DNA of 64,000 bases from assembly GCF_009914755.1 (NCBI RefSeq), contig NC_060931.1. The stretch is one strand, 5' to 3'. Shown piece by piece: positions 22,798 through 27,711 of the stretch. Each line of letters starts with the position of its first letter. The stretch's first letter is position 1. The notes under the pieces are model-generated. The model saw nothing but the letters and a program-made list of their open reading frames with translations, was not told where the DNA came from and made no database searches. The DNA is from the human T2T-CHM13v2.0 reference genome, Homo sapiens. The position numbers were made by a program, and so were the translations under genes.

Positions 22798-23827
22798 CTT
22801 CATGGTTTTATCTACTTTTGGTCTTTGATGATGGTGATGTACAGATGGGTTTTTGGTGTGGATGTCCTTTCTGTTTGTTAGTTTTCCTTCTAACAGACAG
22901 GACCCTCAGCTACAGGTCTGTTGGAGTTTGCTAGAGGTCCACTCCAGACACTGTTTGCCTGGGTACCAGCAGCGGTGGCTGCAGAACAGTGGATTTTCGT
23001 GAACCGCCTATGCTGCTGTCTGATTGTTCCTCTGGAAGTTTTGTCTCAGCGGAGTACCTGGCTGTGTGAGGTGTCAGTCTGCCCCTACTGGGGGGTGCCT
23101 CCCAGTTAGGCTGCTCGGGGGTCAGGGGTCAGGGACCCACTTGAGGAGGCAGTCTGCCCGTTCTCAGATCTCCAGCTGCGTGCTGGGAGAACCACTGCTC
23201 TCTTCAAAGCTGTCAGACAGGGACATTTAAGTCTGCAGAGGTTACTGCTGTCTTTTTGTTTGTCTGTGCCCTGCCCCCAGAGGTGGAGCCTACAGAGGCA
23301 GGCAGGCCTCCTTGAGCTGTGGTGGGCTCCACCCAGTTCGAGCTTCCCGGGCTGCTTTGTTTACCTAAGCAAGCCTGGGCAATGGCGGGCGCCCCTCCCC
23401 CAGCCTCACTGCCACCTTGCAGTTTGATCTCAGACTGCTGTGCTAGCAATCAGTGAGATTCCATGGGCATAGGACCCTCCGAGCCAGGTGCAGGATATAA
23501 TCTCCTCGTGTGCTGTTTTTTAAGCCCGTTGGAAAAGCGCAGTCTTGGGGTGGGAGTGACCTGATTTTCCAGGTGCCATCTGTCACCCCTTTCTTTGACT
23601 AGGAAAGGGAACTTCCTGACCACTTGCGCTTCCCAAGTGAGGCAATGCCTTGCCCTGCTTTGGCTCACACACAGTGCACTGCACCCACTGTCCTGCGCCC
23701 ACTGTCTGGCACTCCCTAGTGAGATGAACCCGGTACCTCAGATGGAAATGCAGAAATCACCCGTCTTCTGTGTCGCTCATGCTGGGAGCTGTAGACCGGA
23801 GCTGTTCCTATTCGGCCATCTTGGCTC
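22798..23827 (-). promoter_or_regulatory. L1 5'UTR: internal sense promoter with YY1 site (23814-23823) and antisense promoter
   Basis: Reverse complement starts GAGCCAAGATGGCCGAATAGGAACAGCTCCGG, the L1 5' end minus about 7 nt. The ~129-bp segment at 22926-23054 that L1PA2/L1HS lack is present. Confidence 0.85.
23382..23456 (+). pseudogene. L1 ORF0, truncated at codon 25
   Basis: ATGGCGGGCGCCCCT gives MAGAPPPASLPPCSLISDCCASNQ then TGA (CGA>TGA CpG decay). Confidence 0.8.
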
Positions 23828-25682
23828 ACAATTAAAAGAACTAGAAAAGCAAGAGCAAACACATTCAAAAGCTAGCAGAAGGCAAGAAATAACTAAAAGC
23901 AGAGCAGAACTGAAGGAAATAGAGACACAAAAAACCCTTCAAAGAATTAATGAATCCAGGAGCTGGTTTTTTGAAAGGATCAACAAAATTGATAGACCGC
24001 TAGCAAGACTAATAAAGAAGAAAAGAGAGAAGAATCAAATACACGCAATAAAAAATGATAAAGGGATTATCACCACTGATCCCACAGAAATACAAACTAC
24101 CATCCGAGAATACTACAAACACCTCTACGCAAATAAACTAGAAAATCTAGAAGAAATCGATAAGTTCCTCGACACATACAGCCTCCCAAGACTAAACCAG
24201 GAAGAAGTTGAATCTCTGAATAGACCAATAGCAGGCTCTGAAATTGTGGCTTTAATCAATAGCTTACCAACCAAAAAGAGCCCAGGACCAGATGGATTCA
24301 CAGCCGAATTCTACCAGAGGTACAAGGAGGAACTGGTACCATTCCTTCTGAAACTATTCCAACCAATAGAAAAAGAGGGAATCCTCCCTAACTCATTTTA
24401 TGAGGCCAGCATCATCCTGATACCAAAGCTTGGCAGAGACACAAACAAAAAAGAGAATTTTAGACCAATATCCTTGATGAACATTGATGCAAAAATCCTC
24501 AATAAAATACTGGCAAAACGAATCCAGCAGCACATCAAAAAGCTTATCCACCATGATCAAGTGGGCTTCATCCCTGGGATGCAAGGCTGGTTCAATATAC
24601 GCAAATCAATAAATGTAATCCAGCATATAAACAGAACCAAAGACAAAAACCACATGATTATCTCAATAGATGCAGAAAAGGCCTTTGACAAAATTCAACA
24701 ACCCTTCATGCTAAAAACTCTCAATAAATTAGGTATTGATGGGACATATCTCAAAATAATAAGAGCTATCTATGACAAACCCACAGCCAATATCATACTG
24801 AATGGGCAAAAACTGGAAGCATTCTCTTTGAAAACTGGCACAAGACAGGGAGGCCCTCTCTCACCACTCCTATTCAACATAGTGTTGGAAGTTCTGGCCA
24901 GGGCAATTAGGCAGGAGAAGGAAATAAAGGGTATTCAATTAGGAAAAGAGGAAGTCAAATTGTCCCTGTTTGCAGATGACATGATTGTATATCTAGAAAA
25001 CCCCATTGTCTCAGCCCAAAATCTCCTTAAGCTGATAAGCAACTTCAGCAAAGTCTCAGGATACAAAATCAATGTACAAAAATCACAAGCATTCTTATAT
25101 GCCAATAACAGACAAACAGAGAGCCAAATCATGAGTGAACTCCCATTCACAATTGCTTCAAAGAGAATAAAATACCTAGGAATCCAACTTACAAGGGACA
25201 TGAAGGACCTCTTCAAGGAGAACTACAAACCACTGCTCAATGAAATAAAAGAGGATAGAAAGAAATGGAAGAACATTCCATGCTCATGGGTAGGAGGAAT
25301 CAATATCGTGAAAATGGCCATACTGCCCAAGGTAATTTACAGATTCAATGCCATCCCCATCAAGCTACCAATGCCTTTCTTCACAGAATTGGAAAAAAGT
25401 ACTTTAAAGTTCATGTGGAACCAAAAAAGAGCCCGCATCGCCAAGTCAATCCTAAGCCAAAAGAACAAAGCTGGAGGCATCACGCTACCTGACTTCAAAC
25501 TATACTACAAGGCTACAGTAACCAAAACAGCATGGTACTGGCACCAAAACAGAGATATAGATCAATGGAACAGAACGGAGCCCTCAGAAATAACGCCGCA
25601 TATCTACAACTATCTGATCTTTGACAAACCTGAGAAAAACAAGCAATGGGGAAAGGATTCCCTATTTAATAAATGGTGCTGA
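23724..25682 (+). CDS. Chimeric ORF: antisense-5'UTR peptide fused to L1 ORF2 aa ~319-936 (reverse transcriptase core, no endonuclease)
   Basis: First ATG at 23724 ([10 protein letters not shown]...HLG) is in frame with SQLKELEKQ. Contains the PIP box [16 protein letters not shown] and LFADDM. Ends at a premature TGA (W codon). Expression not shown. Confidence 0.5.
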
Positions 25683-26700
25683 GAAAACTGGCTAGCCATA
25701 TGTAGAAAGCTGAAACTGGATCCCTTCCTTACACCTTATACAAAAATTAATTCAAGATGGATTAAAGACTTAAACGTTAGACCTAAAACCATAAAAACCC
25801 TAGAAGAAAACCTAGGCATTAACATTCAGGACATAGGCATGGGCAAGGACTTCATGTCTAAAACACCAAAAGCAATGGCAACAAAAGCCAAAATTGACAA
25901 ATGGGATCTAATTAAACTAAAGAGCTCCTGCACAGGAAAAGAAAGTACCATCAGAGTGAATAGGCAACCTACAAAATTGGAGAAAATTTTTGCAACCTAC
26001 TCATCTGACAAAGGGCTAATATCCAGCATCTACAATGAACTCAAACAAATTTACAAGAAAAAAACAAACAACTCCATCAAAAAGTGGGCAAAGGATATGA
26101 ACAGACACTTCTCAAAAGAAGATATTTATGCAGCCAAAAGACACATGAAAAAATGCTCACCATCACTGGCCATCAGAGAAATGCAAATCAAAACCACAAT
26201 GAGATACCATCTCACACCAGTTAGAATGGCAATCATTAAAAGTCAGGAAACAACAGGTGCTGGAGAGGATGTGGAGAAATAGGAACACTTTTACACTGTT
26301 GATGGGACTGTAAACTAGTTCAACCATTGTGGAAGTCAGTGTGGCGATTCTTCAGGGATCTAGAACTAGAAATACCATCTGACCCAGCCATCCCATTACT
26401 GGGTATATACCCAAAGGACTATAAATCATGCTGCTATAAAGACACATGCACATGTATGTTTATTGCGGCACTATTCAGAATAGCAAAGACTTGGAACCAA
26501 CTCAAATGTCCAACAATGATAGACTGGATTAAGAAAATGTGGTACATATACACCATGGAATACTATGCAGCCATAAAAATGATGAGTTCATGTCCTTTGG
26601 TGGGACATGGATGAAATTGGAAATCATCATTCTCAGTAAACTATCGCAAGAACAAAAAACCAAATACCGCATATTCTCACTCATAGGTGGGAATTGAACA
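25683..26700 (+). pseudogene. L1 ORF2 C-terminal region, disrupted
   Basis: ORF-track fragments [11 protein letters not shown]... and ...DLELEIPSDPAIPLLGIYP are separated by frameshifts. Confidence 0.88.
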
Positions 26701-27711
26701 ATGAGGACACATGGACACCGGAAGGGGAACATCACACTCTGGGGACTGTTGTGGGGTGGGGGGAGGGAGGAGGGATAGTTTTAGGAGATATACCTAATGC
26801 TAAATGACGAGTTAATGGGTGCAGCACACCAGCATGGCACATGTATACATATGTAACTAACCTGCACATTGTGCACATGTACCCTAAAACTTAAAGTATA
26901 ATAATAATGAAATAAAATAAAATAAACATAAAAATAAAAAAATAATAAAAAAATTAAAATAAAATAAAAAACCATTTTTTAATACAAATGTTTTGAGGAT
27001 AGTGTGATGTTAATCAGATGCATTTATGGTAGTGTATTTTTAGACACTCTACAGATGACTGTAAAATAAATTGTATGTATTTGGAGGTAGAGGGGGGAAA
27101 AAAGAAGTATTACTTGCCCCTAGAATTTTATAATAAAAACTAATGTTTATTTTCTATTTCACTGTCTCTAGAAAGAGTTCTATTTTATTGTAAATTATAA
27201 GAGCAGTTTAATAATAAAGTCTTCTAAATAAAACATTTCCACTAAATTTATAGCATCTTCTATCTCTGCTCAAGATTCCCAATTTTGCATAAATATTCCT
27301 TCAGTTTAAATTTATATTTGTCGTGATTCTTAAATCTTGATAAAAGAGAAAAAGTACTCCTTTAGAACTAAGTGATATGTAACAGCTCTCTCATATAATA
27401 AATTAACTTCAGAATAACCTTCACATAATGCATTCATTTTGTTTTTCCTTTGTTTATAAAAAAAAGTGCTCTTGGGAAATGGACAAGTTTCTGAAACACT
27501 CAGTTCACAGCATTCACTTTTTTAGCGTTAAACATCAGGTATTTTATGACCCAACTGGCACATAATGCAAAAATATATGTATATATCTTTTCTAGTGGAG
27601 GATTAATGAGGTGGATGTTTATTTTGTGGTTATTTTTAGTGAAGAATTAGTAGAGCGGCTGTTTAAAGAAAACACACTAACACATCAACAATATGGAATG
27701 ATATATTCTAT

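What the first reader, a model, noticed from the sequence alone, without database searches (positions are those of the whole stretch)
23300..26961. Self-contained antisense-promoter > endonuclease-less RT > poly(A) unit with a junction-created start codon
Seen: the + strand reading of the inverted 5'UTR has no stop from 23595 to the junction. It supplies three in-frame ATGs (23724 gagATGa, 23742 cagATGg, 23748 gaaATGc) that run through ...[16 protein letters not shown] into a 652-aa product. ORF0 upstream is cut to 24 codons, and the native L1 3'UTR and AATAAA-rich tail lie downstream. Inference: an ASP-initiated ~3.5-kb RNA would be a monocistronic RT mRNA that bypasses the ORF1-ORF2 translation bottleneck. 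The junction is the same in any L1 with this geometry, so other full-5'-inverted L1s with in-frame junctions may form an overlooked class of RT sources. The motif RQGCPLSP has become RQGGPLSP, a variant typical of group II intron RTs, so it may be tolerated.
Basis: partly seen in the sequence, partly recalled or inferred. Interest (0 to 1): 0.72.

Follow-up and report, generated by a model that had tools for sequence, protein, structure and literature searches.

The report
Twin-primed old L1 with accidental RT-fragment ORF
This is an old LINE-1 retrotransposon whose front half was inserted backwards, which by chance leaves a 652-codon open frame for a truncated reverse-transcriptase fragment facing the element's antisense promoter; it is decaying neutrally and is very probably not a working enzyme source.

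Summary
A 652-aa ORF (23724-25682, +) joins 34 residues read from the antisense L1 5'UTR to ORF2p residues 319-936, with FADD kept and C661G. It lies in one ~6.2-kb L1 inserted by twin priming: 19-nt target-site duplications, inverted arm 20760-23827 (5'UTR, broken ORF1, open EN part 1-320), direct arm 23826-26961, and a 4-6-nt overlap of the arms.

- The ATGs are resident antisense-5'UTR features (6 of 8 other L1 5' ends), not made by the junction.
- Three upstream ATGs and ten internal AATAAA hexamers lie in the proposed mRNA.
- The product lacks the tower baseplate (FF273/274, WD288/289), which a published fragment experiment (aa 349-1275) shows is needed for cDNA synthesis. It also lacks 125 of 199 wrist residues and the whole C-terminal domain.
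- Private substitutions are neutral (8 synonymous, 20 replacement, 1 stop).
- The same 618 codons are open in 23 of 29 nearest copies.
- The 5'UTR keeps the ~129-bp segment tied to ZNF93 repression, so this is an old L1PA3/L1PA4-type copy.

A second full-5'-inverted L1 exists (chr1) with a different junction. None of 149 other L1 5' ends scored had a frame over 248 aa. Verdict: known kind, curiosity, low interest. No expression data were available.

The parts
20741..20759 (.). Left target-site duplication (19 nt, identical to the right copy)
   Evidence: family D10, 100% identity, spacing 6221. It is preceded by T, so the bottom strand reads an L1-endonuclease-like ATTT/A site (read).
20760..23827 (-). 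Inverted arm of the L1: L1 nt ~7 to ~2950, holding the 5'UTR, ORF1 and ORF2 codons 1-320
   Evidence: Pfam domains of ORF1 and the EN domain on the - strand. The end of the arm reads ...CCCTAACATCACAA, as ORF2 does in 28 other copies. The 5' end lies within about 6 nt of the end seen in other copies.
22798..23827 (-). L1 5'UTR (~1030 nt), which holds both the sense and the antisense promoter. The antisense-promoter start region (L1 nt ~400-600) maps to about 23230-23435
   Evidence: 93-95% identity to 5'UTRs of other copies. Promoter positions are inferred from PMC4908685 (passages), not measured here. The RefSeq 'enhancer' features 22838-24038 given by the hub overlap it.
22928..23050 (-). 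~128-nt 5'UTR segment that is absent from 8 of 8 other L1 5'UTRs sampled first. It matches in place and size the 129-bp ZNF93-site segment deleted in L1PA3 and younger lineages
   Evidence: BLAST gap. Of later loci, only L052 and L056 keep it. PMC7110667 (passages) describes the 129-bp deletion. Binding of ZNF93 itself was not tested.
21781..22797 (-). ORF1, broken by three in-frame stop codons (the longest remaining ORF is 218 aa, 21781-22437)
   Evidence: Transposase_22, Tnp_22_dsRBD, Tnp_22_trimer.
20710..21717 (-). Open 335-aa ORF made of ORF2p residues 1-320 (endonuclease plus tower baseplate with FF273/274 and WD288/289) and 15 residues read from the flank
   Evidence: One search aligns it to 8uw3 residues 1-321 with about 21 of 320 residues different by my count. 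One search finds Exo_endo_phos.
23826..23827 (+). Inversion junction: a 2-nt microhomology (TC) shared by the L1 5' end and ORF2. The motif TCACAA (4-6 nt) is present in both arms
23382..23456 (+). ORF0 remnant: ATG in good context, 24 codons, then TGA. It is in the same frame as the big ORF
23463..23564 (+). Second upstream ORF (33 codons)
23645..23719 (+). Third upstream ORF (24 codons, other frame). It ends 5 nt before the main ATG
23724..25682 (+). Chimeric 652-aa ORF: 34 residues from the antisense 5'UTR plus ORF2p 319-936 (part of the tower helices, tower lock, PIP helix, fingers, palm, thumb and the first 74 wrist residues). It ends at a premature TGA
   Evidence: Domain limits come from PMC10830420, sections 8 and 10.
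23826..26961 (+). Direct arm of the L1: ORF2 codon 319 to the end (stop at codon 937, and and my recall of ORF2p a frameshift near codon 1124), the 3'UTR, and an A-rich tail at 26893-26961
   Evidence: family D1; AATAAA positions.
26962..26980 (.). Right target-site duplication

Best explanation
One L1 RNA of the older L1PA3/L1PA4-type lineage (the one that still carries the ~129-bp ZNF93-site segment) was inserted into an intron of DYNC1I1 by twin priming. The poly(A)-primed cDNA gave the direct arm, ORF2 codon 319 to the tail. A second cDNA, primed from the top-strand nick at an internal site of the same RNA, ran all the way to the RNA's 5' end and gave the inverted arm (5'UTR, ORF1, ORF2 codons 1-320).

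Because the inverted 5'UTR abuts ORF2 in phase, Met codons that every L1PA 5'UTR carries on its antisense strand now head an open frame through ORF2p 319-936. This ORF is a by-product of the insertion geometry. The element has since decayed neutrally: ORF1 has three stops, ORF2 stops at codon 937 and is frameshifted later, and the 5'UTR has lost CpGs.

The central bidirectional L1 promoter may still fire at a low level in permissive cells. Any + strand RNA from it would be a poor mRNA (three upstream ORFs, many internal poly(A) signals). Its product would be a doubly truncated ORF2p fragment that should not synthesise cDNA on its own and cannot support retrotransposition.

Shown here: the anatomy, the homology, the neutrality of the substitutions and the commonness of open RT stretches. 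Inferred: the insertion mechanism, the promoter position, and the lack of enzymatic function.
For: Anatomy of a twin-priming event.
- A single pair of 19-nt exact target-site duplications brackets both arms.
- The two arms are complementary parts of one L1 and share only TCACAA at the break.
- An A-rich tail follows at the 3' end, and the target has an EN-like site.
- This matches the published description of 5'-inverted L1s, which made up 639 of 2068 lineage-specific insertions (PMC2912911 passages; PMC2837659 passages).

The ORF is chimeric and truncated.
- It aligns to ORF2p 319-936.
- The - strand ORF holds residues 1-320.
- ORF1 has three in-frame stops.

The Met codons are resident.
- They occur in 6 of 8 other L1 5' ends.

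No sign of selection.
- There are 29 private substitutions: 8 synonymous, 20 replacement, 1 stop.
- The expected synonymous fraction is 0.24, and P(8 or more synonymous) = 0.39.

Open RT stretches are common.
- The same 618 codons are open in 23 of 29 nearest copies.
- P(no stop) is 0.22-0.31.

Poor mRNA features.
- Upstream ATGs lie at 23382, 23463 and 23645.
- Ten AATAAA hexamers lie between 24011 and 25668.

Missing parts of the enzyme.
- The baseplate is 254-300 and the wrist is 863-1061 (PMC10830420, sections 8 and 10).
- Fragment 349-1275 alone gives no LEAP product and needs residues 240-380, with FF273/274 and WD288/289, supplied in trans (PMC13103738, section 21).

Age and decay.
- The ~128-nt extra 5'UTR segment is present (PMC7110667 passages).
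- There are 18 CpGs against 20-34 in the same 759-775-nt 5'UTR stretch of six other loci.
- RefSeq lists no transcript model here (hub table).
Against: Several results leave room for some activity.
- The catalytic FADD and all RT motifs are present, and identity to active ORF2p is 95%.
- C661G gives the residue that 3 of 3 group II intron RTs carry, so it is plausibly tolerated.
- Tower deletions 302-363 and 302-389 do not harm RT activity of the purified core (PMC10830420, section 10), so loss of residues 301-318 as such is harmless.
- A secondary citation says that removing 952-1275 cost only 50% of RT activity in a yeast lysate (PMC3103432 discussion, citing Clements and Singer 1998, which I could not read). 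The C-terminal cut at 936 may therefore not abolish polymerase activity.
- The missing baseplate can act in trans (PMC13103738), and the same locus has an open ORF for residues 1-320 on the other strand.
- RefSeq marks 22838-24038 as enhancer elements (hub), and L1PA2-8 5'UTRs have antisense promoter activity (PMC4908685 passages), so transcription is not excluded.
- Among 150 L1 5' ends scored, this is the only one with a frame over 248 aa, so the fusion is uncommon.
- No RNA, ribosome or peptide data could be consulted.
Confidence: 0.85

Rival explanations
1. One reading: the antisense promoter makes a ~3.5-kb monocistronic mRNA whose 652-aa product is an active, endonuclease-less reverse transcriptase, and such loci are an overlooked RT source.
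For: The geometry is correct. The ORF is intact from 23724 to 25682 with FADD. QGG is the normal group II intron form in 3 of 3 sequences. L1PA2-8 antisense promoters are active (PMC4908685 passages). Enhancer features overlap the 5'UTR (hub). Removal of 952-1275 reportedly left half the RT activity (secondary citation in PMC3103432).
Against: The protein has no baseplate with FF and WD. A similar fragment, 349-1275, made no cDNA alone (PMC13103738, section 21). Only 74 of 199 wrist residues remain, and the wrist contacts the template (PMC10830420, section 8). There are three upstream ORFs and ten internal AATAAA hexamers. Substitutions are neutral, including 19 private residue changes. The ZNF93-site segment is retained. 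There is no annotated transcript (hub). None of 149 other L1 5' ends had a comparable frame, so this is not a visible 'class' of RT ORFs.
Confidence: 0.03
2. Natural 'bipartite ORF2p': the central bidirectional L1 promoter expresses two divergent ORFs. One is EN plus baseplate (1-320) on the - strand; the other is RT (319-936) on the + strand. The two fragments reassemble in trans, as engineered fragments do, and give polymerase activity without retrotransposition competence.
For: Both half-ORFs are open. Together they cover 1-936 with no gap. Engineered EN- and RT-containing fragments complement each other in Alu retrotransposition (PMC4889948, section 28). Residues 240-380 rescue cDNA synthesis in trans (PMC13103738, section 21).
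Against: The - strand ORF lies downstream of an ORF1 with three stops, so its translation is doubtful. In the published assay, EN fragments ending at 264 or 289 had no effect and only those reaching 347 or 490 helped (PMC4889948, section 34); 320 was not tested. The RT half lacks most of the wrist and the C-terminal domain. Both halves carry many private replacements. Evolution is neutral. I ran no binding prediction.
Confidence: 0.01
3. Not twin priming: two independent L1 insertions lying head to head, or a later inversion inside a normal full-length L1.
For: Head-to-head L1 pairs with the same local look do occur. Two of nine other loci fetched after one search were nested or adjacent independent L1s (L044/L052/L053 and L045/L054/L055).
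Against: Here a single 19-nt duplication flanks the whole unit. The arms meet at the same ORF2 position with only 4-6 nt shared, whereas the nested cases show large overlaps or a host L1 on both sides. A later inversion would not place the L1 5' end at the centre with the break ends outside and intact duplications in direct orientation.
Confidence: 0.03

Closest known systems
5'-inverted L1 insertions made by twin priming (Ostertag and Kazazian 2001, not held here; described in PMC2912911 and PMC2837659, passages read)
   Same: One pair of target-site duplications, an inverted 5' segment and a direct 3' segment of one L1, microhomology or a small overlap at the inversion junction, and a poly(A) tail.
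   Different: The inverted arm here reaches the very 5' end of the L1 RNA, so the insertion holds a whole L1 (~6.2 kb) and the complete bidirectional promoter sits in the middle. In what I read I found no count of how often this happens. One further case turned up here (L046/L056).
L1 antisense-promoter chimeric transcripts and ORF0 fusions (PMC4908685 passages; Denli 2015 known only through PMC4859970 passages)
   Same: Transcription would start in the first 600 nt of the 5'UTR on the antisense strand and run into whatever lies beyond the L1 5' end. ORF0 lies on that RNA.
   Different: What lies beyond the 5' end here is the same element's own ORF2 rather than a host gene. ORF0 is cut to 24 codons. 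No transcript has been shown.
Engineered ORF2p fragments: delta348RTCys / Z-RT-CTD 349-1275 (PMC4889948; PMC13103738) and the ORF2p core 238-1061 (PMC10830420; PMC3103432)
   Same: An RT-containing ORF2p piece without the endonuclease. It starts within the tower helices, as delta348 does.
   Different: The natural ORF also ends at 936, so it has no complete wrist and no C-terminal domain. It carries 30 residue differences from the active protein and a 34-residue foreign N-terminus. The active core 238-1061 includes both parts that are missing here.
Retrotransposition-incompetent L1 loci that can still express ORF2p fragments (PMC4176336, seen in a search listing and abstract start only)
   Same: The idea that defective L1 loci may yield truncated ORF2p pieces with residual activity.
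   Different: As far as the abstract start shows, that work concerns premature stops in L1 loci. From my recall of the paper it dealt with full-length loci expressing endonuclease-containing N-terminal fragments from the sense promoter. Here the piece would be an RT fragment driven by the antisense promoter.

Membership tests
Primate L1 (L1PA) retrotransposon copy | ORF1 with trimerisation, RRM-like and C-terminal domains | tested here: met
   Tnp_22_trimer, Transposase_22 and Tnp_22_dsRBD on the - strand. The ORF is broken by three stops.
Primate L1 (L1PA) retrotransposon copy | ORF2 with an APE-type endonuclease and an RT closely similar to human ORF2p | tested here: met
   residues 1-321 and 319-936 align to 8uw3 at about 93% and 95% identity.
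Primate L1 (L1PA) retrotransposon copy | 5'UTR, 3'UTR and A-rich tail homologous to other genomic copies | tested here: met
   5'UTR 92-95% and ORF2 part 97% identical to other copies. The tail is seen.
Twin-priming (5'-inverted) L1 insertion | One pair of target-site duplications around both arms | tested here: met
   19 of 19 nt identical, 20741-20759 and 26962-26980.
Twin-priming (5'-inverted) L1 insertion | The arms are adjoining parts of one L1 in opposite orientation, with a small overlap, deletion or microhomology at the break | tested here: met
   The inverted arm ends and the direct arm begins in ...CATCACAATT..., with 4-6 nt shared and a 2-nt microhomology at the junction.
Twin-priming (5'-inverted) L1 insertion | Both arms arose in one event (empty site, or both arms together, in other species) | not testable with these tools
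   No other primate genomes were available.
Catalytically competent L1 ORF2p RT (core 238-1061) | Palm catalytic motif FADD (D702, D703) and the RT motifs | tested here: met
   alignment; RVT_1 covers positions 3-205 of 205. C661G lies in the RQGCPLSP motif.
Catalytically competent L1 ORF2p RT (core 238-1061) | Tower baseplate / Cryptic interface (254-300, FF273/274, WD288/289) in cis | tested here: not met
   The ORF2p part starts at 319. The requirement comes from PMC13103738 section 21 and PMC10830420 section 10.
Catalytically competent L1 ORF2p RT (core 238-1061) | Complete wrist domain (863-1061) | tested here: not met
   The ORF ends at 936, so 74 of 199 wrist residues remain.
Catalytically competent L1 ORF2p RT (core 238-1061) | Measured polymerase activity | not testable with these tools
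   This needs a recombinant protein assay.
L1 antisense-promoter transcript with ORF0 | Intact ORF0 (about 70 aa according to PMC4859970 passages) | tested here: not met
   24 codons, then TGA.
L1 antisense-promoter transcript with ORF0 | Capped RNA starting in the first 600 nt of the 5'UTR on the antisense strand | not testable with these tools
   No expression data were available. The region is present and about 95% identical to other copies.
L1 lineage before the ZNF93-site deletion (old L1PA3, L1PA4 or older) | Presence of the ~129-bp 5'UTR segment | tested here: met
   About 128 nt are present here and absent from 8 of 8 first-sampled 5'UTRs. PMC7110667 passages describe the deletion. No subfamily library was at hand, so the subfamily name is not assigned.

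The most novel reading that the evidence does not exclude
Full-5'-inverted L1s put sense-strand L1 coding sequence under control of the element's own antisense promoter. Two were seen here: this one and chr1:49.136 Mb. Head-to-head nested L1s give the same local geometry.

In this locus the bidirectional promoter is flanked by two open, exactly adjoining halves of ORF2p (1-320 leftwards, 319-936 rightwards). If both are made in cells with derepressed L1 promoters, the baseplate supplied in trans could switch on cDNA synthesis by the RT half. That would give a cytosolic RT activity from a locus that every catalogue counts as dead.
Probability: 0.02. Interest if true: 0.6.

Novelty: new member of a known kind. 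Interest (0 to 1): 0.2.

Why it matters
As it stands, the locus is a clean, fully resolved example of twin priming in which the second cDNA reached the RNA's 5' end. It is also a reminder that long ORF2 fragments are common in L1PA2-4 copies and are not evidence of function by themselves. One practical point: peptide or antibody screens for ORF2p could in principle pick up products of such fragments. The junction peptide would be the only locus-specific marker.

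Tried and rejected
Genome-wide count of full-5'-inverted L1s with in-frame junctions.
- This is not possible with these tools, because the genome search scores only 40-150 of thousands of candidates.
- I used the protein search as a partial screen instead. 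Its ranking favours hits that extend past the junction, so the 3 of 9 fetched loci with 'antisense 5' end abutting sense L1' are an enriched sample, not a frequency.
- The six longest other frames were checked. The 248-aa frame (L044) runs into the ORF1 of a neighbouring older L1. The frames of 245, 242, 213, 195, 173 and 163 aa run into non-L1 flank. None is an RT fusion.

Literature and earlier notes.
- Clements and Singer 1998, Ostertag and Kazazian 2001 and Speek 2001 are not held. Denli 2015, Jacobs 2014 and Khan 2006 were not read. What I say of all these comes from citing papers or from recall, and is marked so.
- A search for DYNC1I1 with LINE-1 and 'antisense promoter' found 0 papers.
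- The search for 'twin priming' + 'antisense promoter' + ORF2 + LINE-1 listed 18 papers, and none of their titles addresses this geometry (listing only). This is weak evidence that it is not in print, since supplements and subscription journals were not searched.

Analyses not run or not possible.
- I ran no structure prediction or complex prediction. A confident fold of a fragment 95% identical to a solved protein would not speak to stability or activity.
- Splice-site scoring of the antisense 5'UTR was not attempted, because no scoring model was available.
- No subfamily name could be assigned, because no repeat library was available.
- The bacterial promoter/terminator scan was not used, as it does not apply to a human Pol II promoter.

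A slip.
- The alignment held an accidental empty fifth row (a one-base reference). It does not affect the three group II rows.

Full report
WHAT IS THERE. Stop to stop it is 705 codons. Pfam sees only an RVT_1 domain, at residues 242-489 with E 2.7e-46. Against solved structures, residues 35-652 align without gaps to human LINE-1 ORF2p residues 319-936 (8uw3). I counted 30 of 618 residues different from that alignment. The catalytic FADD is kept and RQGCPLSP has become RQGGPLSP, that is C661G. The first 34 residues are a reading of the antisense strand of the L1 5'UTR.

THE ELEMENT. The ORF sits in a single ~6.2-kb L1 bounded by a perfect 19-nt direct repeat, 20741-20759 and 26962-26980.
- From 20760 to 23827 the L1 lies on the - strand. 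It holds a 5'UTR of ~1030 nt, an ORF1 with all three Pfam domains but three in-frame stops, and ORF2 codons 1-320. Those codons are still open as a 335-aa ORF that runs 15 codons into the flank.
- From 23826 to 26961 the L1 lies on the + strand. It holds ORF2 from codon 319, the 3'UTR and an A-rich tail.
- In 28 other genomic copies ORF2 reads ...CCCTAACATCACAATTAAAAGA at this place. The inverted arm ends in ...CATCACAA and the direct arm starts in TCACAATT, so the arms share only 4-6 nt. A 2-nt microhomology (TC) joins the L1 5' end to ORF2.
- The inverted arm starts within about 6 nt of the 5' terminus seen in other copies.

One duplication pair, two complementary arms, a small overlap and a poly(A) end are the published signature of twin priming (PMC2912911 and PMC2837659, passages). 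5'-inverted L1s made up 639 of 2068 human- and chimpanzee-specific L1 insertions in PMC2912911. The unusual feature is that the second cDNA reached the 5' end of the RNA. The whole bidirectional promoter therefore sits in the middle of the unit, and its antisense side faces the direct ORF2 arm. The junction is unique among the 40 matches scored (of 1543 candidates) in the window's own genome.

AGE AND LINEAGE. The nearest 28 gap-free copies of the ORF2 stretch are 96.8-97.0% identical to it. At 29 of 1857 sites (1.6%), at most 10% of those copies share this copy's base. The 5'UTR holds about 128 nt (roughly 22928-23050) that 8 of 8 first-sampled L1 5'UTRs lack. Among later loci only L052 and L056 keep it. 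Its place and size fit the 129-bp segment whose deletion became fixed in L1PA3 and younger lineages and let them evade ZNF93 (PMC7110667, passages). I infer that this copy belongs to the pre-deletion lineage (old L1PA3 or L1PA4). I could not assign a subfamily name, because no repeat library was at hand. If ZNF93 binds here, which was not tested, the promoter would be a target of KRAB-ZNF silencing in the very cells where young L1 promoters are most active. The 5'UTR has 18 CpGs where six other loci have 20-34 over the same 759-775 nt.

IS THE ORF MORE THAN CHANCE?
- The Met codons are not made by the junction. In 6 of 8 other L1 5' ends the same antisense frame reads ...[37 protein letters not shown], and the other two have an indel. 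In this copy, one other antisense frame also offers an ATG after its last stop, and the third frame does not. A random break in ORF2 would therefore acquire an upstream ATG in about two of three phases.
- A 618-codon open stretch of ORF2 is ordinary at this age. It is free of stops in 23 of 29 nearest copies. One of the six others has an indel, which makes my ungapped reading of it invalid. With 4-5% of random substitutions giving a stop, 28 substitutions leave the frame open with probability 0.22-0.31.
- The private substitutions look neutral: 8 synonymous, 20 replacement and 1 stop. The expected synonymous fraction is 0.24 and P(8 or more) = 0.39.
- The stop that ends the ORF, at the codon aligned to 937, is private to this copy: none of the 28 other copies has a stop there.

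WOULD IT BE EXPRESSED? Antisense-promoter starts of L1HS and L1PA2-8 map within the first 600 nt of the 5'UTR (PMC4908685, passages). But an RNA starting upstream of ORF0 carries three ATGs before 23724:
- 23382, the ORF0 remnant, with G at -3 and G at +4, 24 codons;
- 23463, 33 codons;
- 23645, 24 codons, ending 5 nt before the main ATG.

The main ATG has G at -3 and A at +4. Ten AATAAA hexamers lie inside the ORF. From recall of Perepelitsa-Belancio and Deininger 2003, which I did not read here, such sites cause premature polyadenylation of L1 sense RNA. ORF0 is reported to have two splice donors (PMC4859970, passages), so splicing could also remove part of the leader; I did not score splice sites. 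RefSeq has no transcript model here, but it lists two enhancer elements over 22838-24038 (hub table), which coincide with the L1 5'UTR. The ORF is on the same strand as the host gene DYNC1I1, so junction reads alone would not prove promoter use. No paper in the searched library links DYNC1I1 with LINE-1 and 'antisense promoter' (0 papers).

WOULD THE PROTEIN WORK? In the ORF2p structures the tower spans 239-440. It comprises the baseplate (254-300), the tower helices (301-370), the lock (374-382) and the PIP helix (404-419). The wrist spans 863-1061, and the active core is 238-1061 (PMC10830420, abstract and sections 8, 10; PMC3103432, passages).

The ORF starts at 319 and ends at 936. It therefore lacks the whole baseplate, 125 of 199 wrist residues and the C-terminal domain.

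Points in favour of activity:
- Deleting 302-363 or 302-389 leaves RT activity intact (PMC10830420, section 10).
- A secondary citation reports that removing 952-1275 cost only half of the activity in yeast lysate (PMC3103432, discussion).

Points against activity:
- A fragment 349-1275 gives no LEAP product by itself. It is rescued only by residues 240-380 supplied in trans, and not by FF273/274 or WD288/289 mutants (PMC13103738, section 21).
- The wrist is anchored to thumb and palm and contacts the template at n+4 to n+7 (PMC10830420, section 8).
- Large deletions of the wrist and C-terminal domain impair retrotransposition (same section).
- 19 residue changes plus the stop are private to this copy, including S498P, P652S, R809G and Y891H.

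I conclude that RT activity of this protein alone is unlikely (inference) and that retrotransposition competence is excluded for practical purposes.

A CURIOSITY. The - strand ORF carries exactly the missing N-terminal part (1-320, with FF and WD kept). The locus therefore encodes two adjoining halves of ORF2p, diverging from one bidirectional promoter. Engineered halves can complement each other (PMC4889948, section 28). However, EN fragments ending at 264 or 289 did not help and only those reaching 347 or 490 did (section 34). The - strand ORF also lies behind a broken ORF1. I give this reading about 1-2%.

IS THERE A CLASS? A protein search with ORF residues 1-70 scored 150 of 35,849 first-look candidates. 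The window's frame is 705 codons, and the other 149 L1 5' ends have frames of 46-248 codons.
- Of the nine other loci fetched, one (L046 with L056, chr1:49.136 Mb) is a second true full-5'-inverted L1. Its inverted arm is L1 nt 1-640 and its direct arm runs from nt 642 to the end, with a few nt missing at the break. It keeps the 129-bp segment. The only ORFs of at least 150 codons in its direct arm are 1006 and 274 codons.
- Two others (L044/L052/L053 and L045/L054/L055) are independent L1s lying head to head, one of them nested in the ORF1 of another L1.
- The six longest other frames were examined. One runs into a neighbouring L1's ORF1 and five run into non-L1 flank.

So the architecture recurs, but the junction is not 'the same in any L1 with this geometry', and no second RT fusion was seen. 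The sample is small and its ranking is biased, so a proper count needs a repeat annotation table.

VERDICT. This is a well-preserved twin-priming product of a known kind. The main gaps are expression and biochemical data, which these tools cannot supply.

Noticed in passing
L046:969-1609 with L056 (G000 C1:49,135,860-49,142,000): A second full-5'-inverted L1. The inverted arm is L1 nt 1-640 and the direct arm runs from nt 642 to the tail, with a few nt missing at the break. Here the antisense promoter faces the rest of the 5'UTR, ORF1 and ORF2. The direct-arm ORFs are broken (only 1006- and 274-codon ORFs of at least 150 codons).
   Followed up: partly
L054/L055 (G000 C23:47,193,000-47,204,600): A full-length L1 without the 129-bp segment, nested in antisense orientation inside ORF1 of another L1. 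The host L1 resumes with a 9-nt overlap (arm positions 1835-1843), probably the insertion's target-site duplication.
   Followed up: partly
L052/L053 (G000 C5:176,819,600-176,831,800): A full-length antisense L1 that keeps the 129-bp segment abuts an older, 5'-truncated sense L1 starting at about nt 1050. The antisense-5'UTR frame runs 248 codons into that neighbour.
   Followed up: partly
L008 (G000 C12:41,629,448-41,632,514): Two L1 5' ends lie head to head about 130 nt apart. Both have an indel that shifts the antisense frame carrying the Met codons.
   Followed up: no
L043 (G000 C10:90,893,014-90,896,172): A sense L1 with an internal gap from early ORF1 to late EN/tower-coding ORF2 (arm positions 1272 to 2783). 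It may be a deletion or a spliced retrocopy.
   Followed up: no
window 20710-21717 (- strand): An open 335-codon ORF for ORF2p 1-320 plus 15 flank codons. The endonuclease catalytic residues I checked by eye (N14, E43, D145, D205, H230) are present. S202F and Y226C are among about 21 differences from the active protein.
   Followed up: partly
window 22838-24038: The two RefSeq 'enhancer' elements given by the hub coincide with the inverted L1 5'UTR and the junction, that is with the L1 bidirectional promoter rather than with unique host sequence.
   Followed up: no
window 25683-26282 (+ strand): Past the TGA that ends the 652-codon ORF, the same frame stays open for another 200 codons (to 26282), through ORF2p sequence that by my recall reaches about residue 1123, before a frameshift. 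The premature stop is therefore the only break in about 800 codons of ORF2.
   Followed up: partly
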